This document shows positions 4,581-64,000 of a stretch of DNA of 64,000 nt, piece after piece. Both the position numbers and the translations under genes were made by a program. The first letter of the stretch is position 1, and every line of letters begins with the position of its first letter. The notes under the pieces were generated by a model. That model did no database searches. It saw nothing but the letters and a program-made list of their open reading frames with translations, and had not been told where the DNA came from. This stretch comes from Dipteris shenzhenensis (lineage: Eukaryota), in NCBI GenBank assembly GCA_047967505.1, contig CM106538.1. One strand, 5' to 3'.

Positions 4581-4582
4581 AT

Positions 4583-26923: not shown

Positions 26924-26960
26924 CACTAGTTTGGTAGCATAATAGGACATAAAAATATCC
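26924..26960 (+). mobile_element. CACTA-type terminus 1
   Basis: CACTAGTTTGG plus an AGGACATAAAA subterminal motif, exactly at an insertion breakpoint defined by the paralogous empty site. Confidence 0.7.
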
Positions 26961-27847
26961 TTTTGATGTTTTGGCAAAAAAATTACAAATTGATGTAGAT
27001 GTGTTTTTTGATGATTTCCTCTCTTTAGCATAAAGGTAGACTCATAGTACTATTCCTTAAAAAAAGGAGCACAAAAAACCATTACATGTGATTCTAAAAT
27101 GCTCACAAATGTATGGTAACATAGCTTTTTGCTCAGGCAGTATTCACATTTGAAACTTTTTTTAGCATGCTTGGAAATAAAAATGCTTTTAATGAGTTAG
27201 CATTTTTTACAAAGTGTTTATAAGTATGTCAAACACCTAAGGGTGGCAATTGTTTTTTTTAAAATAGTTTTGGCAAGATTGATTTAGCAAATAACAAGAG
27301 TGGTTAGCCTAATGGGTTGCATTTCATAAATGAGCATCTTTGTATATTACACATAATAGCCACAAAGTGTTATATCTTAACAATACTAAAATTCTATCAT
27401 ATGAAAAAATCACCACATCACAATATAGGATATAATTAAAGATATTTAGTGCTCTTAATCTAAACTATCAAAACAACTTGAGCATTAGACCTTACTTTTA
27501 TAGTTTTGAATTATCTCGTATAGAAGTGTTCTACATATAACTTTTTAAAATTGGTATCACTCCTTCATGATTAGAGGCATTCTAGACATACAACTTAAAT
27601 GTTTGAAGGTTCTTGTAATACCAGTTAACCTTTGTATTTTGAAAATAACATAAATTACAACATAATGAACAATCAAAATAAGGTTTGAATTTGGTTTTCT
27701 ACATGATATGAGGTCGCCTAAAAACTCATGCTACTCCATAATATCCTATTGAAGACATATATAAAGTAAGGTTGACTTTGGAACTTGTTAGACATGTCAA
27801 AGAAATAGTAAAAGATCAAAATTTTCCTCGCTACCACCATCTACTAA

Positions 27848-27900
27848 CACTAGTTTGGCAGAAGGACATAAAAATGTCCTAGGACACTTTTATGTCCTGT
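27848..27900 (+). mobile_element. CACTA-type terminus 2 (same family, same orientation)
   Basis: CACTAGTTTGG followed by AGGACATAAAA...TTTTATGTCCT inverted subterminal repeats; also preceded by TAA. Confidence 0.65.
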
Positions 27901-27929
27901 CAATTTAGCAACTTTCTAGAATTATTCAA

Positions 27930-29900
27930 AAGCATCGACTCAACTATGATATTTTGAGAAGGAGAGGATACGTTTGTTCATCGTTAGTCATGTCTAAAAC
28001 AACAAAGTTGGATAGGAATATGATTCCACCAATGTTCATGTGGGAACCTTTGATTTCTCCCATAGGCATCACTTTGCCTTGATTAGCCATTTGCACTTAG
28101 AAATTTACTTAGAAAATTTACTTGATTAGCCATTTGTACTTAGAAATTTGTACTTTGCCTTGATTAGCCATTTGTACTTAGAAATTTACTTCACTTGTTA
28201 GCTTCAAAATAGGATGTTGCATTATACCTTTAGGGATAAGGCTCACATTGGCTCCATGATCAAGGAACACATGCTATAATTGCAGCTATTTATTTCCACA
28301 GTCATCCTAAGAGTTTGTTAACACGTGAGAGTAGCATAAGCTGAGCAGTGCTTTATTGTTGGTCCACCTTGACCATCTTGTTCTTCAATGTGTGCCTTTT
28401 GTTGACCTCCTAGATTTTTTAAAAAGAATGCAATGGTCTAGTGCTTGATTTGTGGAGATAATTGACATACTTGCCTTAGGGTGAAGTTGGGTCAAAACTC
28501 TAAAATTGGTTTGTGGGCAGCCAAGGTCGAGAAACTATATCTAAATCTCTAGCCATTATCTCTTGTCATGAGTAATCCCCAGTACTTCCTTTCCCTTTTC
28601 TTTTGAAGTACCATGGCTCTTTGAATTCTCCTTTAATTGTTGGAGGTATTTGTTGTAGGAAGAGTGGAGGGTTCTAGTTGCTCTTCCTTTTTCTTGCTCT
28701 GTCATTGTTGGGACACTACTTAGGTCAGTTTTGCAAACCTTGTTAGAGTGAGCTTTCAAGAAGGAAACTCAAGAGCGCTTCCTTCTTCCTCAAAACTTGA
28801 TTATATGTCTCAGGTAACACCCTCAATCATAACCTGATATGTTGAAGGCATAGTTTGGTCATTGGAGATGTACCACTCTTAGGATTTGTAAGAGGTCTTG
28901 ATGACCATGTAACCTTAGACATTCATTTAAATCCATTGATAGTAGAAGAAAAGGGTAATGTCTTTTTGGGTACATTGTACACCTAGGAGCTGGGAAATGA
29001 CTTCCTTGAAGACATCTCTATGGATGCACTTGTCCTAGCTTTTATGATGAAGGTGGTCTTGTTGGCAATCAGGCCTCAGGTACTTAATTGCCAACAAAAA
29101 TTCCACGCTTGGTTTGTGACTTTTTCACTGCTCCCAACATTGCCCCAATCATATATGGGCTACCTACCTCCTCGACCACTACTACCGAGCTACTACCTCA
29201 ATTGTATTGACCTAAGGTGTTGGTTCCTATGCAAGATGGCCCACCAAATGGTTGTGTACATTCATCCTAGTAGTTTCCATACTCCCCAAATCTATAGAAA
29301 ATGATTGTTCTTCATAGGGACATTTAGCGTCCTCCTTGACGTCCTTAAAGACCACCTCATGATTGATCTCATGGGTAGTATGGTCCATACCAACCTCTGG
29401 GTTTTTGCTATGATGTGTAATACAACTAATGACAATGGCCCTAACTAATTGGGTGTAGAATCTTGAAGAAAAGGGACTAGTAAGTAGTGAATGTGGAATA
29501 GTAGAAGGTATAAGTGGCTCTAATACATTCACATGAACAATGGTACTGATATTAGATCGAAGGCTATCAGTTGAACCACAACAACTAGGGGTTCTCTAGC
29601 AGGAAAATCTAGAAAATGCTTCCTTAAGCCCTTAGGGTACCTACATTTGCAGGCATCATGTCCATGAATTTTGCAAAAGGTGAAAGGTAGTAGTGATGCC
29701 TTATGTTTGGAGGGACATCCCCATTGACCATGATTAGAACCTTTATGCTCAATGCACTAGAGACCACCTATAACTTGGATTCAAAAGATGAAGGCCCCTC
29801 TACCCTTGTTCTTTAAGTCCTTTTTTAATTTCTTCCAACTCCTTCTTGAGGTGCTACCATTTTGATGATCCATCCTCTCTTGAAAGCTTGGTGCTTGAGA
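27930..29900 (-). mobile_element. Ty3/Gypsy gag-protease remnant
   Basis: Zinc-knuckle-like FCKIHGHDACKC (~29680). Protease VFLDHGANVSLIP (~28265-28230), MANQGKVMPMGEI..MNIGG and FVVLDM...YPLLL (~28090-27955). Confidence 0.72.
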
Positions 29901-29901
29901 G

Positions 29902-32624: not shown

Positions 32625-32679
32625 TAACCATATTACATACATGACCACATAGAGAGGGGGGCAGGGGGGGGCATGGGGT

Positions 32680-33986: not shown

Positions 33987-34968
33987 AGAAAAGAGATGGT
34001 TGTTTTTCCAAATGCAAGTTCAACCCCACAAGAAACGATGAGGTCAATGTACTAATATAATAGTAATCATAGTACTTTTTAGATCTTCATGTTGATTTTA
34101 AACTAGTTTCTTGAAAGATGAAGACATTCCTGTCTTCTTAAACATGCATATATTAGATTCAATTTCACATTGGACATGTACAAGATAGTGATACGCTTAT
34201 AAATGCGAGTCACAATAGAAATTTGGATGGTATTTTCTCAAATCAGGTACTCGGTAGTTTCACTGGAGCTCGTATTTATTTTAAGTTGCTTTCTTATGAA
34301 ATACATGCAGTTTACCTTCTTTACTTTAATTTAGTCATGAGATATATCTTTAGCTTTTTTGAATGGAATTTTGTAGGACAAGGAAGTTGTTACCTTACAC
34401 AACAAAAGCAAAGAAGACATGTAATACCTATTTCATTAATTTTGGACTAGTGCACTGTCCAAATTTGTTTTGTGAGATAATTTTGGATAAAGCATTTCAA
34501 AAAAAGAGGCTCTTATAAAACAAAACTTTGAGTCAAAAAGTAAGATTTTAAAAAAGCAAATTAGAAAAAATGATGTGACATGTTATTAAAACTAGAGTAC
34601 ATTAAAAAAAGAGGACTTCATATTGTTAAAAGAGACAAAAAGTAAGATTTTAAAAAATTAAATTAGAAAAAAAACTAGAGTACATTTAAAAAAAAGTATG
34701 ACACATTTGTACAAGAAGTAGATCATAGAACTCAAAGCCATATGGTATTAAAAAACACCTTCCATTAGCTCATCTTAGAAGATGTCATCTTTGTCTCTCT
34801 TGTCTATTACAACTTTACATTAGAGAACTAAAAAGTCTTTGTGGAACTGTAGTTTCATTTCTTGTCTATTACAGTTACTTTAGAAAACACATAAGTCTAT
34901 GGAATTAAATTTCACAGTTACTTTAAATTTCTATGGAATTAAATTTCCATCACTTGACTATTAAGTCA

Positions 34969-36103: not shown

Positions 36104-37330
36104 TCACAACTCTTCTGATGCTTCTAGTGGAGACTGTGGCAACTCTTCTGATGCTTCCAATGGAGGCTGTGGTGCTCTAGATGTACACTCAGTCTCTACT
36201 TCTTTTGTAGTATGTAGTGCTTTCAGAGCAGACTCAGTATCGTCTTCCTTAAATGCAAGCAGAGGCTGTGGCAACTCTTCTGATGCTTCCAGTGGAGGCT
36301 GTGGTGCTGTAGGTGTACACTGAGTCTCTACTTCTTCTGTAGTGTGTAGTGCTTTCATAGTAGACTCAGTCTCCTCTTCTTTAAATGCAAGCTCTGATAT
36401 TGCTTCAGTTGCATGTTGTATTCTAATGGTAGCAATTAGGTCTCGAATGATTTCAGCCCTAAACAATTGTATATCCTCCTCTAAATATTTGAGCTCCAAA
36501 GAGTCTTCCGATGAGATCCGTGGCTTAAGTGGGAAAATTTCATTGAAAATCAACATATGCAGTTGTAGGCAACTCTCCACCCACAACTATGCCCATCTTC
36601 CTGCTCTACTACTAAACGCTTTTGGAAGTCCACCGAGTCTTTGTACTGTCCTGTTTCTGTGATAGCAGATACCAACTTCTCAATCGACCTGCTCATCATG
36701 ACATATTAAAAAAACTTAGTGTGTCTATTACATAAGGTACATAATATAGAAGTAACAACAAATTAATAGAATACTTACGTTTGCACTAAGCCATGAAAGC
36801 CTGCAATCGAGTTAACAAACCAACAATAGTTGTCTTCAAGGTCCCAAACCACCAGACTCCAATGTTCCCTACACGAATAATTAAGAACCATTATTATTTA
36901 ACACAATGTTGCCAGTATAAGATGAAAATAAAGGTTGCCATGATACTTACATCTCATGATATGCCATAAATAGGACTCGCACGCCATGTAAATGTAAAGG
37001 CTGTAACCATTTACAAACATCGGCTATTGTCTTTCTGCTATCGCTAAGTATAGGAGAAAGGAGGGAATCCAACATATACACACGGTTTTGTACGGCTCTA
37101 CCAAATCGTGAAATAACTATACTGCACCAACAAATAAATGAATATTAGCTTATTAGATTTAATCAAAATATTGAATTATCAAGCAGAGAAAAAGTTTGTA
37201 TCAAACCTGAGAATGGCCATCATACGTTGTTATTGACCTCATTTGAAGCTCTAGAGAGGATTGAAATCTCCTCTCCCCCAAATTCAAGATACTGAGGTCT
37301 ATGTTGAATCATAACCCTAACATTAAAAGA
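36104..37330 (-). pseudogene. Ulp1/C48 protease module 3 with repetitive C-terminal tail
   Basis: EVNNNV | YMLDSLL...VRVLFMAYHE | EHWSLVVWDL...FVNS | EQEDGHSCGWRVAYNC; tail of QPPLEASEELPQ repeats. Confidence 0.82.
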
Positions 37331-37333
37331 GCT

Positions 37334-49375: not shown

Positions 49376-49625
49376 CTGGAAAAAGTTTGTAAGTTTGCTC
49401 TTTCTTGTTTTCTTGCTCTTCCTTCCTTGCTTTCTTGATCGTCCTTGCTTTCTTGCTTCAATGAATGAAATGAGTGGAGAATGAATGAAGAAGGAAAACT
49501 ATATATAAGAAAATTTAGGTTTTCCTCTCCTCTCCTATTGGCTTTCCATTCCTCCCCTCTCTCCTATTGGCTTTTCATTTATCCCCTCTCCCATTGGCTC
49601 CTATTACTCCCCCTCTCCCATTGGA
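49376..49625 (-). promoter_or_regulatory. Putative CCAAT boxes, TATA box and non-coding first exon, cassette 2
   Basis: Minus strand: CCAAT at about 49624, 49597, 49570 and 49540; TTATATATA at 49508-49500; TCATTCA runs; donor TCCAG|GTACTT at 49376/49375. Confidence 0.55.
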
Positions 49626-50319
49626 CCCCCATCCCTCATCCCAATCTTCCATTAGCCCTCCCCCCATCCATTTCTTCTCCCTCCCCCATTGCCACCACTC
49701 CCATCCCACATTTCCACCATGTCCCATACTCCTCCCATTTCCCAAAATCCCATATTTCCCCATCTCACCCTCCTCTTTTTCATCCCCTATTAACTCCCCT
49801 CACTCATTTCAATCCCTTATTATCCTACTTCCCTATTACCTTTCCCTCTCCCATTCCATTCTTCCCTCCCCACTCTCACTTCCACTTCCCATTACTCACT
49901 TGCCATTTGAAAACTATTAATATATTATTATACTATTTTTTATACTTATTACCATACACCCCTATTACTTCCCTCTCCCATTCCACTCCTCCCTCCTCAC
50001 TCCCACTTCCACTTCCCATTACTCACTTGCTATACACATTTGCAAACTATTAATATATTATTATATGATTTTTAATACTACTTGCAAACTTACATGTGGG
50101 CAAAATCACAGGTGTCAAAGCGATCCTATTGTGGTCATACAACAACTGTGCTTTTATTCAAGGGCGTATTTATCCTCATCAACAAGCTTATTTACTCAAG
50201 GTATGACGTGCATAATTTGTGCACTAGGTGTTTACTTTGTTGTATCAAAATTGTTTGCCACACACACACACATATACACATACCAAGAATTTTCTAATAT
50301 TATCGCATCTACATTTCTC

Positions 50320-53300
50320 TGATGGGCACAAAACTTTGTACACGCCTCAACCTAGGTCATATTGACTTGCATACAAAGTGGTGCACCCATACCATAAGTA
50401 CTTGTTCGGATAGTACACCTCCAAACGTATTTTTATGACGATTGTGCATAACACTAAGAACAAAATGGTGTATAATGTGAGATCGACTATGCAAAGCATA
50501 TCCAATGGACACAAGACTTTGCACGTTCCTCAACCTAGGCAGTATTGACTTATGTGCAAAGTGGCATCCCCATCCGATAAGTACTTGTTTGAAAAATACA
50601 CCTATGATCGTGTTTTTTGACGGTTGTACATGACACCAAGGCCAAAAATGGTATTTAATACTCAATCTACCATGTAAAGCATATCCGATGCACACAATAC
50701 TTTGCACGTGCCTCAAAAGCAGTGGTATGGTATTCCATGCAAAGTGGAACACCCATTCAATAAGTACTTTTTAGAATATCACACCTAGGACCATGTTTTT
50801 TATTGGTTGTTGTCCATGACACCAAGGCAAAAACGCTGATTTATGCTTAATCGATAATGCAACGCATATGCAATCATCACAATACTTTGCACACATCTCA
50901 ACCTAGGTATTATTGACTTACATGCAAAGTGGTGTGCCCATCCCATAAGTACTTAGTCGAATAACACATCTAGGATCGCGTTTTTTGACGGTTGTGCATG
51001 ACACACAGGCAAAAATAAAGTTTAATGCTTGTTCGGCAATGCAAAGCATATCCGATGGGCACAATACTTTGCACACACCTTCAACTAGGTGGAATTGACT
51101 TACATGCAAAGTGGCACGCCCATCCCATAAGTGCTTGATCGGCTAACATACCTAGCAGCGTGTTTTTTAACGAATGTGCATGACACTAGAGCAAAAATAG
51201 TATTTAATGCTCGATCGACCATGCAAAGGATATCTGATGGGCACAACACTTTTCATATGCCTCAACCTAGGTGGTATACAAATGTTCTCAAAGAGGCACA
51301 CCCATCCGATAAGTACTTGGTCAGATAACACACCTAAGGGCGTGTTTTTTTACGGATGTCCATATCACTAGGGAAAAAATGGTGTATAATGCGTGATCGA
51401 CCATGCAAAGCATATCCGATGGTTACAATAATTTGCACACACCTCAACGTAGTTGAAACAGACTTGTGTGCAAAGTGGAGCCCCCATCTGATAAGTACTT
51501 ATTTGAATAACACGCCTACGGTTGTGTTTTTATATGGTTGTGCATGACACAAAGGCAAAAATGGTGTTTTATGCTTGATCGACAATGCAAAGCATATCCG
51601 ATGGGCACAATACTTTGTACACACCTTCAACTAGGTGGAATTGACTTACATGCAAAGTGGCATTCCCATCGCATAAGTACTTGATCGGATAACACACCTA
51701 GCAGCGTGTTTTTTTACGGATGTGCATGACACTAAGGCAAAAATGGTATTTAATGCTCGATCAACCATGCAAAGCATATCCGATGGGCACAATACTTTTC
51801 CTATACCTTAACCTAGGTGGTATTGAAATGTTCTCAAAGAGGCACACCCATCCGATAAGTACTTGGTCAGATAACATACCTAAGGGCATGTTTTTTTGCA
51901 GATGTGCATATCACTACGAGAAAAATGTTGTATAATGCGTAATCGACCATGCAGAGGATATCCAATGGTGACAATACTTTGCATGCATCTCAACCTAGTT
52001 GAAACAGACTTGCGTGCAAATTGGAGCCCAGATCCGATAAGTACATGTTTGATTAACACACTTAGGACCGTGTTTTTTCATGGTTGTGCATGACATTAAG
52101 GCAACAACGGTGTTTTATGCTTGATCGACAATGCAAAGCATATCCGATGGGCACAATACTTTGCACACACCTTCAACTAGGTGGAATTGACTTACATGCA
52201 AAGTGGCACGCCCATCCCATAAGTGCTTGATCGGATAACATACCTAGCAGCATGTTTTTTTTACGGATGTGCATGACACGAGCAAAAATAGTATTTAATG
52301 CTCGATCGACCATGCAAAGGATATCCGATGGGCACAACACTTTTCCTACACTGCAAGCTAGGTGGTATTGAAGTGTTCTCAAAGAGGCACACCCATTCGA
52401 TAAGTACTTGGTCAGATAACACACCTAAGGGCGTGTTTCTTCGCGGATGTGCATATCACTATGGAAAAAACGGTGTATAATGCGTGATCGACCATGCAAA
52501 TCATATCGGATGGTGACAATACTTTGCATGCACCTCAACGTAGTTGAAACCGACTTGCGTGCAAAGTGGAGCCCCCATGCGATAAGTACTTGTTTGAATA
52601 ACACACTAGGGACCGTGTTTTTTCATGGTTGTGCATGACACTAAGGTAAAAACGGTGTTTTCGGCTTGATTGACAATGCAAAGCATATCCGATGGGCACA
52701 ATACTTTGCACACGCCTTCAACTAGGTGGAATTTACTTACATGCAAAGTGGCACTCCCATCCCATAAGTGCTTGATCGGATAACATACCTAGCAGTGTAT
52801 TTTTTTACGGACGTGCATGACACGAGCAAAAATAGTATTTAATGCTCGATCGATCATGCAAAGGATATCCAATGGGCACAACACTTTTTGTACACCTCAA
52901 CCTAGGTGGTATTAAGGCACACCCATCCGATAAGTACCTGGTCAGATAACACACCTAATGGCGTGTTTTTCTGCGGATGTGCATATCACTAGGGAAAAAA
53001 TGGTGTATAATGCGTGATCGACCATGAAAAGCATATCCGATGGTGACAATACTTTGCATGCATCTCAACCTAATTGAAACAGGATTTCGTGCAAACTAGA
53101 GCCCCATCCGATAAGTACTTGTTTGAATTACACACCTAGGACCGTGTTTTTTCATGGTACACTAAGGCAAAAACAGTGTTTTATGCTTGATCGACAATGC
53201 AAAGCATATCCGATGGGCACAATACTTTGCATGCATCTCAAACTAGTTGAAACAGGATTTTGTGCAAACTGGAGCCCCATCCGATAAGTACTTGTTTGAA

Positions 53301-56300
53301 TTACACACCTAGGACCGTGTTTTTTCATGGTACACTAAGGCAAAAACAGTGTTTTATGCTTGATCGACAATGCAAAGCATATCCGATGGGCACAATACTT
53401 TGCGCACACCTTCAACTAGGTGGAATTGACTTACATGCAAAGTGGCATGCCCATCCCATAAGTGCTTGATCGGATAACATACCTAGCAGCGTGTTTTTTT
53501 TACGGATCTGCATGACACTAGAGCAAAAATAGTATTTAATGCTCGATCGACCATGCAAAGGATATCCGATGGACACAACACTTTTCAACCTAGGTGGTAT
53601 TGAAATGTTCTCAAAGAGGCACACCCATCCGATAAGTACTTGGTCAGATAACACACCTAAGGGCGTGTTTTTTTGCGGATGTGCATATCACTAGGGAAAA
53701 AACGGGGTTTAATGTGTGATCGACCATGCAAAGCATATCCGATGGTGACAATACTTTGCACGCACCTTAACCTAGTTGAAATGGACTTGCATGCAAACTG
53801 GAGCCCCCATCCGATAAGTACTTATTTGAATAACACACCTACGGCCGTGTTTTTATATGGTTGTGCATGACACTAAGGCAAAAACGGTATTTTATGCTTG
53901 ATCGACAATGCAAAGCATATTCGATGGGCACAACCTTCAACTAGGTGGAATTGACTTACATGCAAAGCGGCACTCCCATCCCATAAGTGCTTGATCGGAT
54001 AACATACCTAGCAGCGTGTTTTTTTGCAGATGTGCATGATACTAGAGCAAAAATAGCATTTATTGTTTGATCGATCATGCAAAGGATATCCGATGGGCAC
54101 AACACTTTTTGTACACCTCAACCTAGGTGGTATTGAAATGTTCCCAGAAGTACTTGGTCAGATAACACACCTAAGGGCGTGTTTTTTTGCGGATGTGCAT
54201 ATCACTAGAGAAAAAATCTCGGGGGGGTCACTCATCATATGTAACCCTATCACGTGAGTTCAACAGAAGGATATTTTTTATTCCTAAAATTTACAGAAAT
54301 AAATATACATAAGGGAATATTTAAAATAGTTTTGGAAAAAAATTACAAATTTGTATAGAAAAGGGGTACATTTTATAAATGAAAAAATTTACAGATAAGG
54401 GATTTTAAATATAGGCCTTGAACGCACGTGATATAGAGGGTTTATACATAGTGACCCCCCCGAGGAAAAAATGGTGTATAAGGCGTGATCGACCATGCAA
54501 AGCATATCTGATGGTGACAATACTTTGCACGCACCTCAACGTAGTTGAAACGGACTTGCGTGCAAAGTAGAGCCCCCATCCGATAAGTACTTGTTTGAAT
54601 AACACACCTAGGATCGTGTTTTTTCATGGTTGTGCATGACACTAAGGCAAAAACGGTGTTTTATGCTTGATCAACAATGCAAAGCATATCCAATGGGCAC
54701 AATACTTTGCACACACCTTAAACTAGGTGGAATTGACTTACATGCAAAGTGGCACACCCATCCCATAAGTGCTTGATCGGATAACATACCTAGCAGCGTG
54801 TTTTTTTACGGATGTGCATGACACTAGAGCAAAAATAGTATTTAATGCTCGATCGACCATGCAAAGGATATCCGATGGGCACAACACTTTTTGTAAACCT
54901 CAACCTAGGAGGTATTGAATTGTTCTCAATGAGGCACACCCATCGGATAAGTACTTAGTCAGATAACACACCTAATGGCGTGTTTTTTTACGGATGTCCA
55001 TATCACTAGGGAAAAAATGGTGTATAATACGTGATTGACCATGCAAAGCATATCCGATGGTGACAATACTTTGCATGCAGCTCAATGTAGTTGAAACAGA
55101 CTTGTGTGCAAAGTGGAGCCCCCATCCGATAAGTACTTATTTGAATAACACACCTACGGCCATGTTTTTATATGGTTGTGCATGATACAAAGGCAAAAAC
55201 AGTGTTTTATGCTTGATCGACAATGCAAAGCATATCTGATGGGCACAATACTTTGCACACACCTTCAAATAGGTGGAATTGACTTACATGCAAAGTGGCA
55301 TTCCCATCGCATCAGTACTTGATCGGATAACACACCTAGGAGCGTGTTTTTTTACGGATGTGCATGACATTAAGGTAAAAATGATATTTAATGCTCGATC
55401 GACCATGCAAAGCATATCCGATGGGCACAATACTTTTCCTACACCTTAACCTAGGTGGTATTGAAATGTTCTCAAAGAGGCACACCCATTCGATAAGTAC
55501 TTGGTCAGATAACATACCTAAGGGCATGTTTTTTTGCAGATGTGCATATCACTACGGGAAAAACGTTGTATAATGCATAATCGACCATGCAGAGCATATC
55601 CGATGGTGACAATACTTTGCACACATCTAAACCTAGTTTTAACAGACTTGCGTGCAAACTAGAGTCCCCATCCGATAAGTACTTGTTTGATTAACACACT
55701 TAGGACCGTGTTTTTTCATGTTTGTGCATGACACTAAGGCAAAAACGGTGTTTTATGCTTGATCGACAATACAAAGCATATCCGATGGGCACAATACTTT
55801 GCACATACCTTCAACTAGGTGGAATTGACTTACATGCAAAGTGGCACATCCATCCCATAAGTGCTTGATTGGATAACATACCTAGCAGTGTGTTTTTTTA
55901 CGGATGTGCATGACTCGAGTAAAAATAGTATTTATTGCTCGATCGATCATGCAAAGGATATCCTATGGGCACAACACTTTTTGTACGCCTCAAGCTAGGT
56001 GGTATTGAAACGTTCTCAAAGAGGCACACCCATCCGATAAGTACTTGGTCAGATAACAAGACTAAGGGCGTGTTTTTTTACGGATGTGCATATCACTAGA
56101 GAAAAAATGGTGTATAAGGCGTGATCGACCATGCAAAGCACATCCGATGGTGACAATACTTTGCATGCACCTTAACATAGTTGAAACGGACTTGCGTCCA
56201 AAGTGGAGCTCCCATCCGATAAGTACTTGTTTGAATAACACACCTAGGACCGTGTTTTTTCATGGTTGTGCATGGCACATACCTTCAACTAGGTGGAATT

Positions 56301-58470
56301 GACTTACATGCAAAGTGGCACTCCCATCCCATAAGTGCTTGATTGGATAACATACCTAGTAGCGTGTTTTTTTACGGATGTGCATGACACGAGCAAAAAT
56401 AGTATTTATTGCTCGATCGATCATGCAAAGGATATCTGATGGGCACAACACTTTTTGTATGCCTCAACCTAGGTGGTATTGAAACGTTCTCAAAGAGGCA
56501 CACCCATCCGATAAGTACTTGGTTAGATAACACACCTAAGGGTGTGTTTTTTTGCGGATGTGCATATCAGTAGAGAAAAAATGGTGTATAAGGCGTGATC
56601 GACCATGCAAAGCATATCCGATGGTGACAATACTTTGCATGCACCTTAACATAGTTGAAACGGACTTGCGTCCAAAGTGGAGCTCCCATCCGATAAGTAC
56701 TTGTTTGAATAACACACCTAGGACCGTGTTTTTTCATGGTTGTGCATGACACTAAGGCAAAAACGGTGTTTTATGCTTGATCGACAATGCAAAGCATATC
56801 TGATGGGCACAATACTTTGCACACACCTTCAACTAGGGGGAATTGACTTACATGCAAAGTGGCACGCCCATCCCATAAGTGCTTGATCGGATAACATACC
56901 TAGCAGCGTGTTTTTTTATGGATGTGCATAACACTAGAGCAAAAATAGTATTTAATGCTCGATCGACCATGCAAAGGACATCCGATGGGCACAACACTTT
57001 TTGTAGTTGAAACGGACTTGCGTGCAAAGTGGAGCCCCCATCCGATAAGTACTTGTTTGATTAACACACCTAGGACCGTGTTTTTTCATGGTTGTGCATG
57101 ACACTAAGGCAAAAAGGTTGTTTTATGCTTAATCGACAATGCAAAGAATATTCGATGGGCACAATACTTTGCACACACCTTGAACTAGGTGGAATCGACT
57201 TACATGCAAAGTGGCACTCCCATCCCATAAGTGCTTGATCGGATAACATACCTAGCAGCGTGTTTTTTTACGGATGTGCATGACACTAGAGCAAAAATAG
57301 TATTTATTGCTCGATCGATCATGCAAAGGATATCCGATGGGCACAACACTTTTCGTACATCTCAACCTAGGTGGTATTGGAATGTTCTCAAAGAGGCACA
57401 TCCATCCGATAAGTACTTGGTCAGATAACACACCTAAGGGCGTGTTTTTTTGTGGATGTGCATATCACTCGAGAAAAAATGGTGTATAATGCGTGATCGA
57501 CTATGCAAAGCATATCTGATGGTGACAATACTTTGCACGCACCTCAACGTAGTTGAAATGGACTTGTGTGCAAAGTGGAGCCCCCATCCGATAAGTACTT
57601 GTTTGAATAACACACATAGGGCTGTGTTTTTATATGGTTGTGCATGACACTAAGGCAAAAAGGGTGTTTTATGCTTGATCCACAATGCAAAGCATATCCG
57701 ATGGGCACAATACTTTACACACACCTTCAACCAGGTGGAATTGACTTACATGAAAAGTGGCATTCCCATCGCATAAGTACTTGATCGGATAACACACCTA
57801 GCAGTGTGTTTTTTTTACAGACGTGCATGACACTAGAGCAAAAATAGTTTTTAATGCTCGATCGACCATGCAAAGCATATCCGATGGGAACAATACTTTT
57901 CCTATGCCTTAACCTAGGTGGTATTGAAATTTTGTCAAAGAGGCACACCCATCCGATAAGTAGGACTTGGTTAGATAACATACCTAAGGGTGTGTTTTTT
58001 TCCAGATGTGCATATCACTATGGGAAGAACGTTGTATAATGCGTAATCGACCATGCAGAGCATATCTGATGGTGACATTACTTTGTACGCATATCAAAAT
58101 ACTTGAAACGGACTTGCGTGAAAAGTGGAGCCCCCATCCAATAAGTACTTGTTTGATTAACACACTTAGGGCTGTGTTTTTTCATGGTTGTGCATGACAC
58201 TAAGGCAAAAACAGTGTTTTATGCTTGATCGACAATGCAAAGCATATCCGATGGGCACAATACTTTGCACACACCTTCAACTAGGTGGAATTAAGTTACA
58301 TGCAAAGTGGCACACCCATCCCATAAGTGCTTGATTGGATAACATACCTAGCAGGCTCGTGTTTTTTTACAGATGTGCATGACACTAGAGCAAAAATAGT
58401 ATTTAATGCTCGATCGACCATGCAAAGGATAACTTGGCATGTCCATCTGATGAGTACTCGATCAGATAAC
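50320..58470. repeat. Satellite array: ~182-bp monomers in a ~546-bp trimeric higher-order repeat
   Basis: The anchor CAACTAGGTGGAATT recurs at 51082, 51628, 52174 and 52719 (spacing 546, 546, 545). Three alternating monomer types share ATGCAAAGCATATCCGATGG and CATCCGATAAGTACTTG. About 43 monomers. Confidence 0.95.
54218..54464. mobile_element. 247-bp MITE inserted in the satellite
   Basis: Perfect 15-bp TIR CTCGGGGGGGTCACT, extending imperfectly to ~45 bp with ATCACGTG.GTTCAA; AT-rich interior; 8-bp TSD GAAAAAAT at 54210-54217 and 54465-54472. Confidence 0.92.
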
Positions 58471-58595
58471 TTCTCCCACCAATAAATTAAGTACTAATTA
58501 AAAATTATAATAAATGAGTAGATTATTAAAAAGAGACTAATATTTATGTAATTGTTGCTATTGCAACTTGCTTGCGAAGGACTCTCACAAAGGAG

Positions 58596-60001
58596 ATGGC
58601 TATAGATTTTTTTCCAGGGATGGATGTGATTTTATGTAGCAAAAGAGAAGTAGTTGCATTTGCTACAATCCATGATAGTGATCCCAATTCAGTTTGCCAC
58701 TTTCGAAGACTTGGCGAAGATAAGGTGGCAGTTACTGTATCAAAGATTCTTAGCGCACATGTTGAGCTAAAGTATAAATGTGGAGATATGGAAACACTTG
58801 GAGATGTTATGCCCTACAATACATCCAACAAATCATTTATAGCATGGGACAAAGATGAGACTTATGCAACAGACATTATCAAGAATACAAAGTGCACCAC
58901 CTTGGATTTTACTATAGGGGACATTTTGCAAATGAGATCATTTGCAAATAAGACTGTAGCAGAAGGTGAAGTATTGGGATTTGAATAAGGGAGCAATGGT
59001 CATTTGCACAGATGAGGATTCTAAAAGTCACTGATGATGGTATGGTTGATAACATAACATCCTTATGTAATCCCTACTATGAGGTAGGCAAGAATATGAG
59101 ATGGAGCATGCAATTTTCAAACATGAGAAAGAGGCACGTGGTTTTCAATGATAAAGACAAGGTATACTACAATATCAAAGGACCTAAAATGCGTGCCCAT
59201 GTGCCAGGCTCTATCACTTCAAATGTGGATGATTTCAATATACTCAATTATAGAAGTGACATCTTATTTGGAGTGGATGAGTTCATTGGTTCTGAGAAAC
59301 AAAATGATTTTAGAAGTGAAGCCTTATCTGGGGGTGGATGAGTTCTTGCACAGTGAGAAGGGCAAAGGTTTCAATAGCGATGTCTTGTCAAGTGTGGATG
59401 AGTTCATGCATATTAACAAACCTGGTGTCAATCAAGCTTGTGGATTTGTGAAAGCCATGCAAGATGTCCCAATGAGTGATGTTCTCTCAGGAGTGGAAGA
59501 GTTTCAAGGTTCTCAATACTCTCGTAGAATATTGAATTCATTGAATGGTCCTAAGAGTATGTCAAAAACAAGGATGAGATCAATAGAGGGTTATTCAATA
59601 TTTAACTTTGATTGTGATATGGACAAGGATGCAACGACCAATCATGGATGCTTGGCTACAAACAAATGTGAGGAGAAGAAGTGCATAAATACAAATAACA
59701 ACGTGCACGCGGAAAGAAAATGGTCATACATATGCATGAAGAGAAAGCGAATCCAGGCAGATCCATAAAAGCAACCAAAGAGGAAGAGAGTAATGAAGGA
59801 GGAGAACATGTTAAATGCATTGGGATATCTATGTTGCAAGCGAAGATGTATGCGCTTCATTGATCTTGCAGACATCAGGGAATGTAGAGGACACGTGTGG
59901 CAAAGAAGAGGAAGCGAAAGAAGTGAATGCCTTCTCACAAGTCTCTCTTGCTTTCTTCAGAATGGCAATAAAAGGCTAAGTTCAAGACAAAAGGTAAAAC
60001 C
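58596..60001 (+). pseudogene. Transposon-related protein, decayed and interrupted by Copia: Tnp1/En-Spm-like (Transposase_23-like) domain(s), peptide repeats and a Cys motif
   Basis: VILCSKREVVAFATIHDSDP..CHFRRLGED.VAVTV...METLGDV...FIAWD fits the Tnp1/En/Spm pattern. A second weaker copy (KTVAEGEV...RW) follows, then four S[DE].L.[GS]V[DE]EF repeats and LCCKRRCM..I..CR..VW. Two frameshifts and two stops. Confidence 0.6.
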
Positions 60002-63000
60002 TGTGGGGTTAAAGTTCACTGTGCCTTAACCCTAGTTATGTACAATACTCAAACACATATATAAATGAATGAAAAAGAAGATTAGGGTGGTTCTGCACCC
60101 ACCAAAACTTGTGTGGCTCTCTGTCTCTCTCTCTCCTTCTTCCGTTCTTGCTTCCGTTGAGAGCACTCTCAACTGGTATCAGAGCCCGGGTGATCTAGAT
60201 GAGCGTGCGTGAATGCTTGAAGCTCAGCAGCTCTGTGGGAGGAAGGAGAAGCTCTGTGGAAAGCTTTGTGGGTGACTTTACTTGCATCCGAGTGTGCAGA
60301 GACCTTGGAGGAACCTTTGGAAAAGTCACTTTGGCTTTACGAAGTGGTTTTGAGAGCCTGTTAAGAGCTTTCAAAGAAAAAGTCGTTTTTTGAGCTTTTC
60401 CCTGTTCCGTTCGATGACAGAGACTCCGTATTGACTTGTAGAGGCAACTATTGCTTGCTTTTGGTGTCCACATTACTTCAGGAGCTTGGAAACACCTTCA
60501 TTCTTGAATCTAGGGTCATTTCATTGGATTTCTGACTCACTGTGTCAATTCCTGCGTTTTTTGCCCGGGTGTTGGAACTCAAGTTTGGAGCAACCATTTG
60601 CAGATCTGTCAGTTCCGGTGGACTTAGGAGGTCCTAAAACTTCTATGTTGCTCATCATTCGCACTCTGGTGGAGTTTATAAACAGCTCTGTTTCAAAAAA
60701 CGTTTTTCAGCCCGTGTGTTGGACCCAATGATTGAGACCACGGTTTCCAAAACCGTCTGTCCCATTGCCTTCCGGACGCCCAAAAACCCCTACCTATCAG
60801 TTCTTGCATGATTCGGTGGAGGATTTTCAGAGTTATAAATCTCTGTGTATTCGATTTCGTCTCTTTCATACTAAGGTTTTGAAACCTTAGATTTATGCGA
60901 CATGGCAGTGGATAAGTGTTGACTCCCATTTCTCGCTCATCGGTTGGGATTTTGGAGTTCTGGCAGAAGAGAGATATTTGTAGATTTTCTTGCTGAGTCT
61001 GATTATGCAATGGCACCCATGTTTTGAAGCATCTCAGGTTCTATTTTCAGTAGTGCTCATTACCGTGGGACTATGATTTCTTGAGCATACCTTATGCAGA
61101 TCACTCTGGTTGCAGTTTGAGCAGTGTTGTGCACTCATTCGTGGTGTGCATTGGGTTGCAATGGATGATTTATAGGCCATTTGGATGCATTGCGGTCCTT
61201 ATTGGATGCGCTGATAGGCCCAAATTGCCTTGTGGGATGCTATTTTTTATGGACGCTTTGCACATGGATGCTATTTTATGCTGAGGGACAGCTTTGACAC
61301 ATTGTTGGTGATGCACTGATAGTGGTATGCTCTCTTGGATGAGATATTATTGATGCATATGCCAGTGGATGGTGTTTATGCTTGAGTCATTTGGCACTTA
61401 TTGGCATTTTCTTTTGGGCCAGATTTGCTCATATGGATGCATAGTATATGCACATGAGTCAGATGCATCTTTTGATGCTTTGAGCTTTGAGTTTTGGTGA
61501 TATTTCAGTCTATTGTGGCATACACATTTAGGTGCACCTGGTATTTGGTGTGATTCTCTCTTGCAGGGACTAGCATTTGGGATTTTGTTTCATTTGCATC
61601 ATGGCATCCTCTTCCACGTCTGAAAAGGAGTTTTTCAGCATTAAAAAGTTTGATGGGACAAACTTTTCTTTGTGGAAAGAACAAATAAGGGATGTGCTTA
61701 TTCAAAAGAAGCAGATTAAACCCTTGGCAGGGATTGAAGCTAAGCCTGCAAATATGTCTGAGGATGATTGGAATGAGTTGGATGCATTAGCAAAGTCTAC
61801 TATTAGACTTCATCTTGCAGAGTCAGTTTATTTCACAGTAGTAAATGAGCAGACTATGGAAGATTTGTGGAAGAAACTGTGTGCCACTTATGAGAAGGAA
61901 ACTGCCTCTAATAAAGTTTACCTCATGAAGAGGTTGTTTGAGCTGCAGATGAAGGAAGGGGTCTCCATTGCTTCTCACTTGAATGAATTCAATATTATTT
62001 TCAGCCAGCTTCAGGCTCAGAAAATGAATTTGGATGCAGAGACTAAGGCAATATTTCTCATATGTTCATTGCCATCCTCATGGGATACCTTTCGTATAGC
62101 TGTCGGTAACTTTGCACCTGGTGGAGTGCTGAAATTTGATGATGTTGTGGGTAGCTTGTTGGCCGAGGAGATTAGACGGAAGTCTATGGATGGCAACAAG
62201 CAGGATGCAGCCTTAAATGTGCAAAGGGGTAGATCACAGTTCAGGGGGAAGTCCCAAGAAAGAGGGAAGTCACGTAGCAAATCCAGGGCACGGAACATTG
62301 AGTGTTACCACTGTGGCAAGAAGGGCCATATGAAAAAGGATTGCTACAAGCTAAAAAGAGAGCAAAGGGATAAGAAAAAGAATGCAAATTGGGGTGCAAA
62401 TCAAAAGGAAGAGAGTCCAAGGGAGGACAAAGGAAAAGTGAAGATCGAGGAGATCAATGCAATCACACATGATAGTGACAATGACGTTCTCTTCATGTCT
62501 AGTTTATCTGCAGAGTTGCTTACCACTTCAGATGATGCATATTCCCAGGATTGGATTTTGGATTCTGGTGCTTCATTCCATGTTACTCCCCATAGGGAAT
62601 GGTTCTCCACTTATGATAGTGGAAAGACAGGTTGTGTGCATCTTGGAAATGACTATGCATGTGACATAGTGGGAGCAGGTGACATAAAGTTTTCTTTTGC
62701 AAATGGGTCTGCATTTGTTTTGAAACATGTGAGACATGTGCCTAAGCTGACCAAGAGTCTTATTTCAGTGGGTCAGCTAGATGATGCTGGTTTTCACACC
62801 ACTTTTGGCTTTCAGAGTTGGAAAATTCAAAAGGGCTCTATGCTTTTGGCTAGGGGTGCCAAGTGTGGGACTTTGTATCCCTTACATGTATCAGGGGTAT
62901 TTGATCATGTTGTTGCAATAACCGAGCAACCAAGCACTTCTTTGTGGCATTGCAGGTTGGGGCACATGAGCCAGAATGGAATGAAACTCTTATGCCGTTT

Positions 63001-64000
63001 GGGTTATGTACCGCATTTGAGTTTCTCTGATTTTGAATTTTGTGAGCACTGTCTCTATGGGAAGCAGACTAAATCAGCCCATAAAAGAAGGGGAAAGAAA
63101 GAGTTTGAAATGCTTGATTTGGTGCATTCAGACGTATGTGGTCCCATGCCTACACGGTCATTAGGCGGGGCTGAATACTATGTGACATTCATTGATGATG
63201 CAACTAGGAAAGTGTGGGCTTATGGAGAGTATCTCTCTCATGACTTTCAACATTTCTGTGATACTCGTGGGATTAAGAGGGAGCTTACATCCCCTCGTAC
63301 TCTAGAGCAAAATCCAGTTGCAGAAAAGATGAACCGTACCATTCAAGAAAGGTTGCAATGTATGCTTTCCAATGCAAGTCTTTCTGGTGGTTTTTGGGCT
63401 GAGGCAATGAAGACTGCAGTGCATGTGATCAATAGATCACCTAGTAAGAGTTTGGATGGTGGTATTCCTGAAGAGGCATGGAGTGGCAAGAAGCCCTCTT
63501 ACTCTCATTTGCGTATATTTGGGTGTGAGGCATATGCACATGTGCCAAAAGAGCTTCGAAAGAAGCTAGATCCTAAGTCTAGGAAATGCATCTTTCTGGG
63601 TTATGGTGAAAGTGGAGAGATGGGCTATCGTCTCTGGGATCCAGAAGCAAAGAAGATCATACGCAGCCATGATGTGGTCTTCAATGAGAAGAAGATGCAT
63701 AAGGCACCCATGAGGGATGTGGAAATGAGGAGAATCACTTTCCAGGATGTGAATCCACCTGCATATGTTGATAGACAGCAAGCTGTCCATGCACCAAATG
63801 TGCAAGAAATGGTACAACCAAGTACTCCCACAGGTATACAATCAAGGGTAGATTATGGATCATCTATTGGTGGAAATGATGAGCCAAATGTGGCTGATAT
63901 GGAAGTGGGACAGCAAGCTGAAATGCCCTTGAGAAGATCATCTAGAGTCTAACCGCCTGATAGGTTTGTTCTAGGGGTAGACTATGTGATGCTCACTGAT
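60002..64000 (+). mobile_element. Second copy of the Copia family at 4412-10464; runs off the window end
   Basis: LTR 60002-60171, PBS TGGTATCAGAGC at 60174, and a leader and gag-pol collinear with the first copy. Confidence 0.97.
61601..63952 (+). pseudogene. Copia gag-PR-INT ORF with an in-frame integrase deletion and a premature stop
   Basis: Intact CYHCGKKGHMKKDC, WILDSGASFH, LWHCRLGH and HSDVCGP. The KVWAY|GEYL junction lacks 35 codons including RTDNG; TAA at 63950 precedes the RT. Confidence 0.92.

What the first reader, a model, noticed from the sequence alone, without database searches (positions are those of the whole stretch)
26924..64000. Candidate giant CACTA-like cargo element: ParB-like/3xUlp1 gene, internal higher-order satellite and a divergent Tnp1-like gene
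Seen: a CACTAGTTTGG terminus exactly at an insertion breakpoint, with the empty site visible in the paralog at 23274-23287. Over the next 37 kb follow two orphan genes, a minus-strand ParB-like plus triple SUMO-protease gene, its duplicated promoters, an 8-kb satellite and a plus-strand Tnp1/En-Spm-like gene pointing away from it. Established: CACTA elements encode Tnp1/TnpA-type proteins and can carry Ulp1 proteases and tandem repeats; bacterial ParB clamps load at palindromic centromere-like parS sites. Inference: these parts form one mobile unit, in which a ParB-like protein with de-SUMOylase modules may act on the adjacent satellite as an anti-silencing or segregation/chromatin module. I do not know this architecture from described plant TE families.
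Basis: partly seen in the sequence, partly recalled or inferred. Interest (0 to 1): 0.88.

Follow-up and report, generated by a model that had tools for sequence, protein, structure and literature searches.

The report
Decayed transposon block with triple-Ulp1 pseudogene
This stretch is a graveyard of plant mobile DNA: a real transposon end, a broken multi-copy gene with three SUMO-protease-like modules, a satellite array and a nested retrotransposon, with no sign of the proposed ParB-like domain.

Summary
Most of the sequence features are real. The functional story is not supported.

**Confirmed**
- A CACTAGTTTGG terminus starts exactly where homology to an uninterrupted paralog ends, at 26923/26924.
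- A minus-strand gene (36.1-43.4 kb) carries three tandem Ulp1/C48-like modules.
- A 182-bp satellite spans 8.1 kb and has a 546-bp (three-monomer) higher-order period.

**New**
- The same terminus occurs a second time at 27848, in direct orientation and again after TAA. No inverted partner exists in the window.
- 60002-64000 is a nested Ty1/copia element.
- No transposase is visible between 26.9 and 60 kb.
- The Ulp1 gene copy is dead. It has a nonsense codon inside a conserved block, and three indels that contigs from related genomes lack.
- The gene belongs to a multi-copy family.

**Not supported:** "ParB-like". There was no Pfam, PDB or plasmid match, the supposed motif is not conserved in homologs, and the AlphaFold models were unusable.

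**Weak:** "Tnp1-like". Pfam PF03017 is the top hit, but at E=0.12.

**Untestable here:** whether all parts form one element, because no genome is held and the right end lies off the window.

CACTA elements with Ulp1 domains, and CACTA elements with internal satellite arrays, are both already published. I read this as a degenerate composite of a known kind, of modest interest.

The parts
23274..23287 (.). Empty-site paralog (…GTGTTAA|GGGATTGATGG) in the first unit of a roughly 3.2-kb tandem duplication (21292-24526 and 24527-26923…)
26924..26961 (+). Transposon terminus copy 1: TAA|CACTAGTTTGGTAG…AGGACATAAAAATATCCT, starting exactly at the breakpoint
27848..27898 (+). Terminus copy 2, in the same orientation and also preceded by TAA: CACTAGTTTGGCAG…, followed by an 18-nt motif and its abutting inverted copy
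42840..43412 (-). First ORF of the minus-strand gene (191 aa from Met). No family match and an unusable AF2 model
41048..42913 (-). One reading frame of 622 codons with three in-frame stops (TGA at 42641-43, TGA at 42173-75, TAG at 42041-43). It holds the family-specific N-terminal region, the putative 'ParB-like' part. The TAG sits inside the conserved block …P(I/V)xxQH[F]xxACN
   Evidence: homologs
40686..41207 (-). 174-aa ORF that continues the gene in another frame. Contigs from related genomes lack 2 nt at 41050
38899..40157 (-). Ulp1-like module 1 (exon-like ORFs a-d). Exon b is split across two frames, and related contigs replace 84 nt with 32 nt at 39554-39639
37337..38496 (-). Ulp1-like module 2. 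Its His-box ORF 37812-37907 hits Pfam PF02902 at E=0.015
36107..37369 (-). Ulp1-like module 3. Its His-box ORF 36778-36897 hits PF02902 at E=0.021. A frameshift follows the Cys box, and related contigs lack 2 nt at 36555. The tail holds a 132-bp x2 repeat
43482..43747 (.). Short tandem repeats upstream of the gene (48 bp x2.7 and 61 bp x1.9). Calling them 'promoters' is inference only
44600..50080 (.). Polypyrimidine tract: (CT)n grading into C-rich repeats of about 95-108 bp that contain the palindrome GGGCTGGCGGCCGCGGCCGCCAGCCC. GC reaches 65% and GC skew -0.62 to -0.67
50321..58431 (.). 182-bp satellite of about 44 monomers with a 546-bp three-monomer higher-order period. Each monomer carries a 29-nt imperfect inverted repeat
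58530..59768 (+). Three overlapping ORFs in three frames. The first has a weak match to TNP1/En/Spm (PF03017, E=0.12, profile positions 8-64 of 66)
60002..64000 (+). Ty1/copia LTR retrotransposon: 5' LTR plus gag, protease barrel and pre-integrase. It runs off the window and is 88-95% identical to the copy at 4412-8503

Best explanation
The block is the decayed, composite remains of cut-and-paste DNA transposon insertions, most likely of the CACTA (En/Spm) type. They sit in the second unit of a tandem duplication downstream of an M18 aminopeptidase gene. The left edge is a real element terminus that begins CACTAG and follows a TAA target. Inside lies one copy of a multi-copy, transposon-borne accessory gene. 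Its product would have a lineage-restricted N-terminal region of unknown fold, followed by three tandem Ulp1/SENP-like (C48) cysteine-protease modules. This copy is a pseudogene. The polypyrimidine tract and the 182-bp satellite are internal or adjacent repeat arrays of a kind already described inside CACTA elements. A Ty1/copia element has inserted at 60002. SHOWN: the terminus at the breakpoint, the module structure, the disabling mutations, multiple variant copies in related genomes, the satellite's higher-order period, and the copia. INFERRED: in intact family members the protein would act as a TE accessory factor, for example de-SUMOylating chromatin or silencing factors. This is by analogy with the Ulp1-bearing KIU/VANC genes of VANDAL elements and with CACTA-ULP elements. 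Also inferred is that the gene and the terminus once belonged to the same element. There is no ParB-like module, and nothing at this locus is functional.
For: TERMINUS. Homology to the paralog ends to the base where CACTAGTTTGG begins. The same terminus of about 40 nt recurs at 27848. The 18-nt subterminal motif has 3 matches against 0.11 expected. The exact 11-mer occurs twice. ULP1. The 3 His-box exon-like ORFs align with invariant C, HWSL, D, F, NS and H. 2 of those 3 ORFs have PF02902 as their only Pfam hit (E 0.015 and 0.021, profile positions 89/94-120). A profile of the 3 ORFs against PDB returned 14 sequences at E<=10. 11 of the 14 are named SENP2, Dub1/Dub2 deubiquitinase-deneddylase or XopD. 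The other 3 are named 'membrane thiol protease' or 'conserved membrane protein'. All are aligned on the HW motif, best E 0.013. The Cys-box exons share Q..(G/S)H..CGWRV.YNC. PSEUDOGENE. A TAG sits where homologs have Phe in ...QHF..ACN, and there are two further in-frame TGAs. Contigs from related genomes lack 2 nt at 36555 and at 41050, and replace 84 nt with 32 nt at 39554-39639. These are exactly the places where the window's frame breaks. MULTI-COPY. In run X1, 292 contig records were laid on the 20-kb stretch: 67 at >=99%, 150 at 95-99% and 75 at 90-95% identity. Up to 5 distinct contigs cover one place. LINEAGE-RESTRICTED. 5 proteins reached E<=0.001 among 1.84 billion representatives. 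All are 99-177-aa fragments, and one is a Diphasiastrum complanatum hypothetical protein. PRECEDENTS. CACTA-ULP families in grapevine and rice (PMC2528002, passages read). A CACTA element with an internal 5.5-kb, 171-bp satellite array (PMC8978399, passages read). COPIA..
Against: No inverted partner of the terminus exists in the window with up to 2 mismatches, apart from chance-level hits (19 found against 18.8 expected). TIRs and a TSD are therefore unproven. None of the ORFs of >=60 aa scanned between 26.9-44.7 kb and 58.4-61.6 kb matches a CACTA transposase family such as Transposase_21, or any other transposase. The two termini lie in direct, not inverted, orientation. TAA before both termini, together with the GTTTGG in the end sequence, would also fit a PIF/Harbinger-type element (target preference recalled, not tested). 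The C48 assignment never reaches Pfam's gathering score. Reading His and Cys exons through the in-frame intron did not raise it: P0011 had no hit and P0012 had E=0.094. The position of the catalytic Asp is Asn in all three modules. The link between the terminus and the gene rests only on adjacency. No shared sequence connects the satellite to any other part of the block.
Confidence: 0.5

Rival explanations
1. Unrelated mosaic. The CACTA-like termini belong to one or two small non-autonomous or truncated elements confined to about 26.9-29.9 kb. The Ulp1 gene unit (about 34.4 to at least 45 kb) is a separate dispersed repeat from another transposon family. The satellite and the Tnp1-like ORFs are independent neighbours.
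For: Two termini lie 924 bp apart in the same orientation, and their interiors share only about 40 nt. No TIR or direct-repeat pairing was found between any of the sub-blocks tested. The satellite shares nothing with the rest of the block. The gene runs opposite to the terminus orientation. No transposase links the parts.
Against: The remainder of the interrupted tandem unit does not reappear within 37 kb, so whatever was inserted is large or multiple. Ulp1 and the weak Tnp1-like match are both gene types associated with CACTA (PF03017). No terminus of any other element was recognised around the gene.
Confidence: 0.3
2. A single giant CACTA cargo element runs from 26924 to beyond 64000. Its ParB-like/3xUlp1 protein loads on the adjacent palindrome-bearing satellite as an anti-silencing or segregation module.
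For: The terminus at the breakpoint is real. Each satellite monomer contains a 29-nt imperfect inverted repeat. TE-encoded VANC proteins, some fused to Ulp1, act on tandem-repeat targets in their own non-coding DNA (PMC5735166, abstract read; PMC13317346, passages read).
Against: No ParB signal was found by Pfam to E=10, by PDB phmmer to E=10, or by tblastn against 72,556 plasmids at E<=1. In the motif, D becomes Y and G becomes S in two homologs, and Phe replaces the ParB arginine. This copy is a pseudogene. The last 4 kb is a copia element, not cargo. No motif is shared between the satellite and the gene's flanks.
Confidence: 0.07
3. The Ulp1-module gene is a host gene, or a domesticated gene, that merely sits among transposons.
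For: It is a long multi-exon structure, and distant homologs exist in another plant lineage (Diphasiastrum).
Against: The copy carries nonsense and frameshift mutations. Many divergent copies exist in related genomes: 292 contig records in X1, with up to 5 contigs at one place. The only homologs are short fragments.
Confidence: 0.03

Closest known systems
CACTA-ULP elements (Cactavine-2, -3, -4, -5 and -13 of grapevine; rice Tnp2+ULP1 proteins; Benjak et al. 2008, PMC2528002)
   Same: A CACTA-type terminus lies next to a transposon-borne Ulp1/C48-like protease region, and the family is multi-copy.
   Different: Here there are three tandem protease modules rather than one. They are not fused to, or accompanied by, a Tnp2 transposase in the visible 33 kb. 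The N-terminal region has no known domain. Asn replaces the catalytic Asp. The copy is dead. Membership of the CACTA superfamily is itself unproven.
KIU/Kaonashi and VANC genes of VANDAL (non-TIR MULE) elements (PMC13317346; PMC5735166)
   Same: A TE accessory gene combines a family-specific N-terminal region with an Ulp1 domain. In that system the protein targets tandem repeats in the element's own non-coding DNA to counter silencing.
   Different: No Pfam match was found to any domain in the N-terminal region (the VANC/DUF1985 link is recalled, and no such hit appeared). The terminus type differs. No binding motif is shared between the satellite and the gene's flanks. The comparison is a functional analogy only.
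CACTA 'Jozin' elements of Chenopodium quinoa with a captured satDNA array (Belyayev et al. 2022, PMC8978399)
   Same: A multi-kb internal array with a monomer of about 170-180 bp (there 171 bp x32.5 = 5.5 kb, lying near the 3' end).
   Different: There the element has both ends and a Transposase_21 coding region. Here neither was found, and the array shows a three-monomer higher-order period.
ParB/Srx superfamily (Pfam PF02195 ParBc)
   Same: Only a five-residue resemblance, IDGQH.
   Different: No profile, sequence or fold evidence was found. The motif is not conserved in homologs and lacks the arginine.

Membership tests
CACTA (En/Spm) superfamily | Element ends begin with CACTA(C/G) | tested here: met
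   The left end reads CACTAGTTTGG at 26924 and again at 27848.
CACTA (En/Spm) superfamily | Terminal inverted repeat, meaning a matching right end in inverse orientation | tested here: not met
   No minus-strand match was found beyond chance within the window, with 19 hits against 18.8 expected at <=2 mismatches. The right end may lie beyond 64000, so this covers the window only.
CACTA (En/Spm) superfamily | 3-bp target-site duplication | not testable with these tools
   TAA precedes both termini and is present at the empty site. The right flank is unavailable because no genome is held.
CACTA (En/Spm) superfamily | TnpD/Tnp2-type transposase (Pfam Transposase_21 and associated domains) | tested here: not met
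   No such hit appeared among the ORFs of >=60 aa scanned in 26.9-44.7 kb and 58.4-61.6 kb. Shorter decayed fragments were not scanned.
CACTA (En/Spm) superfamily | TnpA/TNP1-type second protein (PF03017) | tested here: inconclusive
   PF03017 is the top hit for ORF 58530-58985, at E=0.12 and 12.7 bits against a cut-off of 21, covering profile positions 8-64 of 66.
CACTA (En/Spm) superfamily | Arrays of short subterminal repeats | tested here: inconclusive
   Only one 18-nt motif was found, 3 times. No k-mer enrichment appeared in the first 1.5 kb.
Peptidase C48 (Ulp1/SENP) | Profile match above Pfam's gathering score | tested here: not met
   The best scores were 15.6 and 15.1 bits against a cut-off of 20.7, on single exon-like ORFs. 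Read-through constructs did no better. A spliced product could not be submitted.
Peptidase C48 (Ulp1/SENP) | Catalytic His in an HW motif | tested here: met
   HWSL is invariant in all 3 modules. It aligns to the HW of SENP2, ChlaDub and XopD.
Peptidase C48 (Ulp1/SENP) | Catalytic Asp about 17 residues after the His (…F/Y-x-D-S…) | tested here: not met
   Asn occupies this position in all 3 modules (FVNS, FANS, FVNS), aligned to the D of FFDS in 6mrn_A.
Peptidase C48 (Ulp1/SENP) | Gln…Cys box (Q-x3-5-C-G) | tested here: inconclusive
   Q, H and CGWRV.YNC are invariant in the 3 modules. The family motif is recalled from memory, and the profile search with these exons returned only spurious armadillo-repeat hits.
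ParB/Srx (PF02195 and relatives) | Profile or sequence match to the ParB N-terminal domain | tested here: not met
   Pfam to E=10 gave none. PDB gave none. Plasmid tblastn at E<=1 gave none.
ParB/Srx (PF02195 and relatives) | Conserved Arg-containing box (DGxHR / GxxR; recalled) | tested here: not met
   The window has IDGQH followed by a stop. The homologs have IDSQHF and VYGQHF.
ParB/Srx (PF02195 and relatives) | ParB/Srx fold | tested here: inconclusive
   The AF2 model built on a 9-row alignment had mean pLDDT 43.4, too poor for a fold search.
Ty1/copia LTR retrotransposon (60002-64000) | gag, protease barrel and GAG-pre-integrase domains, with an LTR shared with another copy | tested here: met
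   Pfam E values ran from 1e-17 to 3e-33. Identity to 4412-8503 is 88-95%.
Higher-order-repeat satellite | Monomers more alike at a multiple of the period than to their neighbours | tested here: met
   Monomers spaced 546 bp apart are 83.5-92.9% identical to the reference, against 73-78% for most neighbours. TRF also reports a 474-bp unit at 96%.

The most novel reading that the evidence does not exclude
Intact members of this gene family may encode a new class of transposon accessory protein in seed-free plants. It would combine a sequence-specific N-terminal DNA-binding region of unknown fold with three Ulp1-like modules that carry Asn at the catalytic Asp position. The protein would be recruited to the element's own repeat arrays (the satellite or the G-rich tract) to remove SUMO or related marks and hold off silencing. 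This would be a CACTA-borne counterpart of the VANC/KIU system.
Probability: 0.07. Interest if true: 0.7.

Novelty: new variant of a known kind. Interest (0 to 1): 0.27.

Why it matters
If the family has intact members, a transposon gene with three tandem Ulp1-like modules and an unrecognised N-terminal region would extend the recurring link between plant DNA transposons and SUMO proteases. That link has so far been described in angiosperm MULE and CACTA elements. The only named homolog here comes from a lycophyte, so the family reaches outside the angiosperms. It would also offer a second system for asking why transposons keep capturing Ulp1. As it stands, this locus is a dead copy in a repeat-rich block, and its value is mainly for annotation. 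It shows that the ParB reading should be dropped. It also shows that the 'giant element' is at best a nested composite.

Tried and rejected
- **Whole genome:** none is held.
- **Protein homolog searches (all 3 used):** the 331-aa ORF against longer proteins gave none. P0010 residues 92-400 against shorter proteins gave none. The module-1 Cys exon against longer proteins gave none. These searches need shared 5-mers, so they are weak negatives.
- **Exhaustive HMMER search:** the 331-aa ORF found only 5 fragments.
- **ESM Atlas:** there was no usable hit for the 331-aa ORF.
- **JGI metagenome contigs:** the protein scan found no relative, and the terminus pattern had no match.
- **AlphaFold2:** P0010 with a 9-row alignment gave pLDDT 43.4. 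The first ORF as a single sequence gave pLDDT 35.8. Both models are unusable, so no fold search was run.
- **Read-through of His and Cys exons:** this was done for modules 1 and 3 and did not improve the C48 score. PDB phmmer with P0011 gave none.
- **PDB profile of the Cys exons:** it hit only designed armadillo repeats through a single-sequence tail, which is spurious.
- **Sequencing runs:** no RNA holder is listed, so nothing can be said on expression.
- **Laid contigs:** at >=90% identity they left 25.0-29.7, 30.3-31.7 and 33.0-34.3 kb almost without cover. That is a hole, not evidence that these parts are low-copy or separate from the gene unit.
- **Loose ends at 44519, 44571 and 44712**: these lie at the start of the (CT)n tract and may be low-complexity matches to other organisms, so I did not use them as element boundaries.
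- **Repeat pairing:** no inverted or direct repeat pairing was found between 26.9-36.1 kb and 43.5-45 kb or 58.4-60.1 kb. No similarity was found between the satellite and any other part.
- **RNA genes:** Rfam and tRNA scans gave nothing.
- **Earlier findings of this scan:** nothing relevant was found.
- **Literature:** a search for 'ParB-like' plus 'Ulp1' returned 6 papers. By title, the 5 listed concern bacterial proteins (ParB/KorB/VirB, and a mycobacterial ClpC1 substrate), where Ulp1 is presumably a tag-cleavage reagent. No ParB-Ulp1 fusion turned up in that one search.
- **Not attempted:** a profile-profile test against a ParB alignment.
- **Not seen:** supplements of the cited papers.

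Full report
**Setting.** The window is repeat-rich plant-type nuclear DNA.
- Left of the finding lie a hAT transposase remnant (DUF659 plus the hAT dimerisation domain, 1.7-3.3 kb, minus strand) and a Ty1/copia element (4.4-10.5 kb).
- An M18 aspartyl-aminopeptidase gene has exons between about 11.1 and 21.0 kb, with TE fragments in between.
- Downstream of that gene a unit of about 3.2 kb is tandemly duplicated: 21292-23280 matches 24527-26923 at 77-84%.
- No whole genome is held for this window. Everything that needs sequence beyond 64000, or other loci of the same genome, could not be done.

**The breakpoint and the terminus.**
The two units align up to …AAATGTGTTAA. The first then continues GGGATTGATGG and the second continues CACTAGTTTGG.
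- The 1246 bp that follow the empty site in unit 1 are found nowhere right of 26924. Whatever interrupts unit 2 is therefore at least 37 kb long, or the remainder has been lost.
- The same terminus occurs again 924 bp further in, at 27848. It has the same orientation and is again preceded by TAA: TAA|CACTAGTTTGG(T/C)AG…AGGACATAAAAAT(A/G)TCCT.
- The 18-nt motif occurs three times, all at these two ends, against 0.11 expected by chance. This is a real, repeated element end.
- Beyond about 40 nt the two copies share nothing.
- No inverted copy of the terminus exists anywhere in the window. The loose matches found are at the chance level, 19 against 18.8 expected.
- The first 1.5 kb shows no array of subterminal repeats.
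- TIRs and a target-site duplication are therefore unproven, and at least two element ends are stacked here.
- I favour a CACTA classification because the end begins CACTAG. TAA before both copies, together with the GTTTGG in the end sequence, would also suit a PIF/Harbinger-type element. That target preference is recalled from memory and was not tested.

**The minus-strand gene.** Stop-to-stop ORFs on the minus strand between 43.4 and 36.1 kb form one long gene-like structure. Its 3' half consists of three tandem modules at about 40157-38899, 38496-37337 and 37369-36107.
- Each module is built from four homologous exon-like ORFs. tblastn between modules gives E values from 1e-8 to 1e-19. Modules 1 and 3 are 58-59% identical, and module 2 is 35-50% identical to the others.
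- The third ORF of each module carries an invariant C..HWSL…D…F.NS…H pattern. The fourth carries Q..(G/S)H..CGWRV.YNC.
- The Ulp1/C48 assignment is consistent but statistically thin.
  - PF02902 is the only Pfam hit for 2 of the 3 His-box ORFs. E is 0.015 and 0.021, and scores are 15.6 and 15.1 bits against a cut-off of 20.7. Both hits fall on profile positions 89/94-120.
  - A profile of the three ORFs against PDB sequences returned 14 sequences at E<=10, best E 0.013. Eleven are named SENP2, chlamydial Dub1/Dub2 or XopD. Three are named 'membrane thiol protease' or 'conserved membrane protein'. All are aligned at the HW motif.
  - Reading His and Cys exons through the short in-frame intron did not lift the score.
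  - A search for longer homologs of a Cys exon found none.
- In that alignment the catalytic Asp position is Asn in all three modules.
- I conclude that these are divergent Ulp1-like modules, at roughly 85% confidence. Whether they would be active is open.

**The N-terminal half and 'ParB-like'.**
- From 42913 to 41048 the gene is a single frame of 622 codons interrupted by three stops: TGA, TGA and TAG.
- Its largest ORF (331 aa) has only five relatives at E<=0.001 among 1.84 billion representative proteins. All five are 99-177-aa fragments. One is a hypothetical protein of the lycophyte Diphasiastrum complanatum, and the others come from unnamed ENA or Logan contigs.
- The presumed ParB cue is …RFQPIDGQH.
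- The three homologs that cover it read …RFEPIDSQHF…, …NFEPVYGQHF… and …HACN…. D and G are not conserved, and the residue after H is Phe rather than the arginine of ParB/Srx boxes. That ParB motif is recalled from memory.
- Direct tests were all negative.
  - Pfam hmmscan of the 622-aa read-through protein to E=10 returned no ParB family. The only hit was a chance-level Dna2 match.
  - phmmer against all PDB chains to E=10 returned nothing.
  - tblastn against 72,556 plasmids at E<=1 returned nothing.
- AlphaFold2 with the 9-row alignment gave mean pLDDT 43.4. The first ORF alone gave 35.8. The fold therefore remains untested.
- The ParB reading has no support.

**This copy is dead, and the family is multi-copy.**
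- The TAG at 42041-42043 replaces the Phe of the conserved QHF..ACN block.
- Four public DNA runs hold relatives of the gene. No RNA holder is listed.
- Their contigs, laid on 25001-45000 at >=90% identity, differ from the window in three ways. They lack 2 nt at 36555, they lack 2 nt at 41050, and they have 32 nt in place of 84 nt at 39554-39639.
- These are exactly the three places where the window's reading frame jumps. The first is between the Cys box and the tail of module 3. The second is between the 331-aa and 174-aa ORFs. The third is inside exon b of module 1.
- The window copy therefore carries at least one nonsense mutation and three frame-breaking indels.
- In run X1, a single labelled organism, 292 contig records were laid. 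67 were at >=99%, 150 at 95-99% and 75 at 90-95% identity. Up to five distinct contigs covered one place.
- That is what a dispersed repeat family looks like, not a single-copy host gene.

**The rest of the block.**
- Upstream of the gene are short tandem repeats at 43482-43747.
- Next comes a tract of about 5.5 kb that starts as (CT)n and becomes extremely C-rich. GC reaches 65% and GC skew is -0.62 to -0.67. It contains repeats of about 95-108 bp built around the palindrome GGGCTGGCGGCCGCGGCCGCCAGCCC. The long 'ORFs' there are low-complexity artefacts.
- The 182-bp satellite runs from 50321 to 58431.
  - Relative to a reference monomer, monomers spaced 546 bp apart are 83.5-92.9% identical, and most of the others are 73-78%.
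  - There are irregularities, including a 474-bp unit, and the leftmost 1 kb is more diverged.
  - The 'higher-order' claim is therefore right, and the unit is three monomers.
  - The satellite shares no sequence with any other part of the window.
- Directly after the satellite, three overlapping plus-strand ORFs (58530-59768) sit in three frames. The first has PF03017 (TNP1/En/Spm) as its best Pfam hit over nearly the whole 66-position profile, but at E=0.12 and 12.7 bits against a cut-off of 21.
- From 60002 to the end of the window lies a Ty1/copia element. It has an LTR, gag, protease barrel and pre-integrase (E from 1e-17 to 3e-33), and it is 88-95% identical to the copy at 4412-8503. This is a nested insertion, not cargo.
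- None of the ORFs of >=60 aa scanned between 26.9-44.7 kb and 58.4-61.6 kb matches any transposase.
- The 'two orphan genes' are ORFs without any family match.

**One element or several?** This could not be decided.
- For a single large CACTA remnant:
  - The terminus sits at an insertion breakpoint.
  - The interrupted unit does not resume within 37 kb.
  - The two recognisable gene types inside (Ulp1 and, weakly, Tnp1) are both CACTA-associated.
- Against:
  - There are two stacked same-orientation ends.
  - No transposase was found, and no inverted end.
  - No repeat pairing was found between sub-blocks.
  - The gene is oriented opposite to the terminus.
- I put about 50% on a degenerate CACTA-type element, or nested elements, that carried the Ulp1 gene.

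**Comparison with what is known.**
- Ulp1 domains in CACTA families were reported in grapevine, with Tnp2+ULP1 proteins in rice (PMC2528002, passages read).
- Ulp1-bearing KIU/VANC genes of VANDAL elements are reviewed in PMC13317346 (passages read).
- VANC proteins target tandem repeats in the element's own non-coding DNA (PMC5735166, abstract read).
- A CACTA element with both ends and an internal 5.5-kb array of 171-bp monomers was described in Chenopodium quinoa (PMC8978399, passages read).
- The combination of CACTA, Ulp1 and a satellite is therefore a variation on published themes.
- What is unusual here is the triple tandem protease arrangement with Asn at the triad position, the unrecognised N-terminal region with a lycophyte homolog, and the very large polypurine/polypyrimidine tract next to the gene's 5' end.
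- Supplements of these papers were not seen.

**Verdict.** The terminus and the Ulp1 modules hold, ParB does not, and whether the parts form one element cannot be told. Novelty: a new variant of a known kind. Interest: 0.27.

Noticed in passing
window 44600-50080: A polypyrimidine tract of about 5.5 kb, purine/G-rich on the gene's strand. It grades from (CT)n into C-rich repeats of about 95-108 bp that contain a GC palindrome. GC skew is about -0.65 and GC reaches 65%. It lies between the 5' end of the Ulp1 gene and the satellite.
   Followed up: partly
window 36778-36897, 37812-37907, 39274-39387: All three Ulp1-like modules have Asn where SENP and ChlaDub structures have the catalytic Asp (FVNS/FANS against FFDS). 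This could mean an altered triad or inactive modules.
   Followed up: partly
window 29897-30070 and 32455-32627: A 174-bp direct repeat pair (94% identical) lies 2.56 kb apart. It has the highest contig depths of the laid stretch in run X1 (up to about 220-250). It may be a small, very abundant element or the ends of one. It lacks TG…CA ends.
   Followed up: partly
window 33107-33466: A 182-bp unit is repeated twice at 97% identity. It has the same period as the satellite, but BLAST finds no sequence similarity to it.
   Followed up: partly
window 11099-20986 (+): Exons of an M18 aspartyl-aminopeptidase host gene (Pfam PF02127, E 2.5e-10 and 4.3e-24). A copia RT fragment (16270-16623) and a hAT DUF659 fragment (18609-18830) lie between them, presumably in introns.
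   Followed up: no
window 1684-3264 (-): A hAT-type transposase remnant: DUF659 split over two ORFs, plus a weak hAT dimerisation domain.
   Followed up: no
window 4412-10464 and 60002-64000: Two copies of one Ty1/copia family, 88-95% identical. The left copy has broken ORFs, while the right copy has a 792-aa open gag-pol stretch that runs off the window.
   Followed up: partly
window 36107-36392: A 132-bp x2 (33-bp sub-period) repeat encodes an acidic and proline-rich tail after module 3. The repeat number may vary between copies.
   Followed up: no
runs X2-X4: Three of the four DNA runs that hold relatives of the gene are labelled 'algae metagenome'. The only named protein homolog is from a lycophyte. 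The source lineage of the window was not determined.
   Followed up: no
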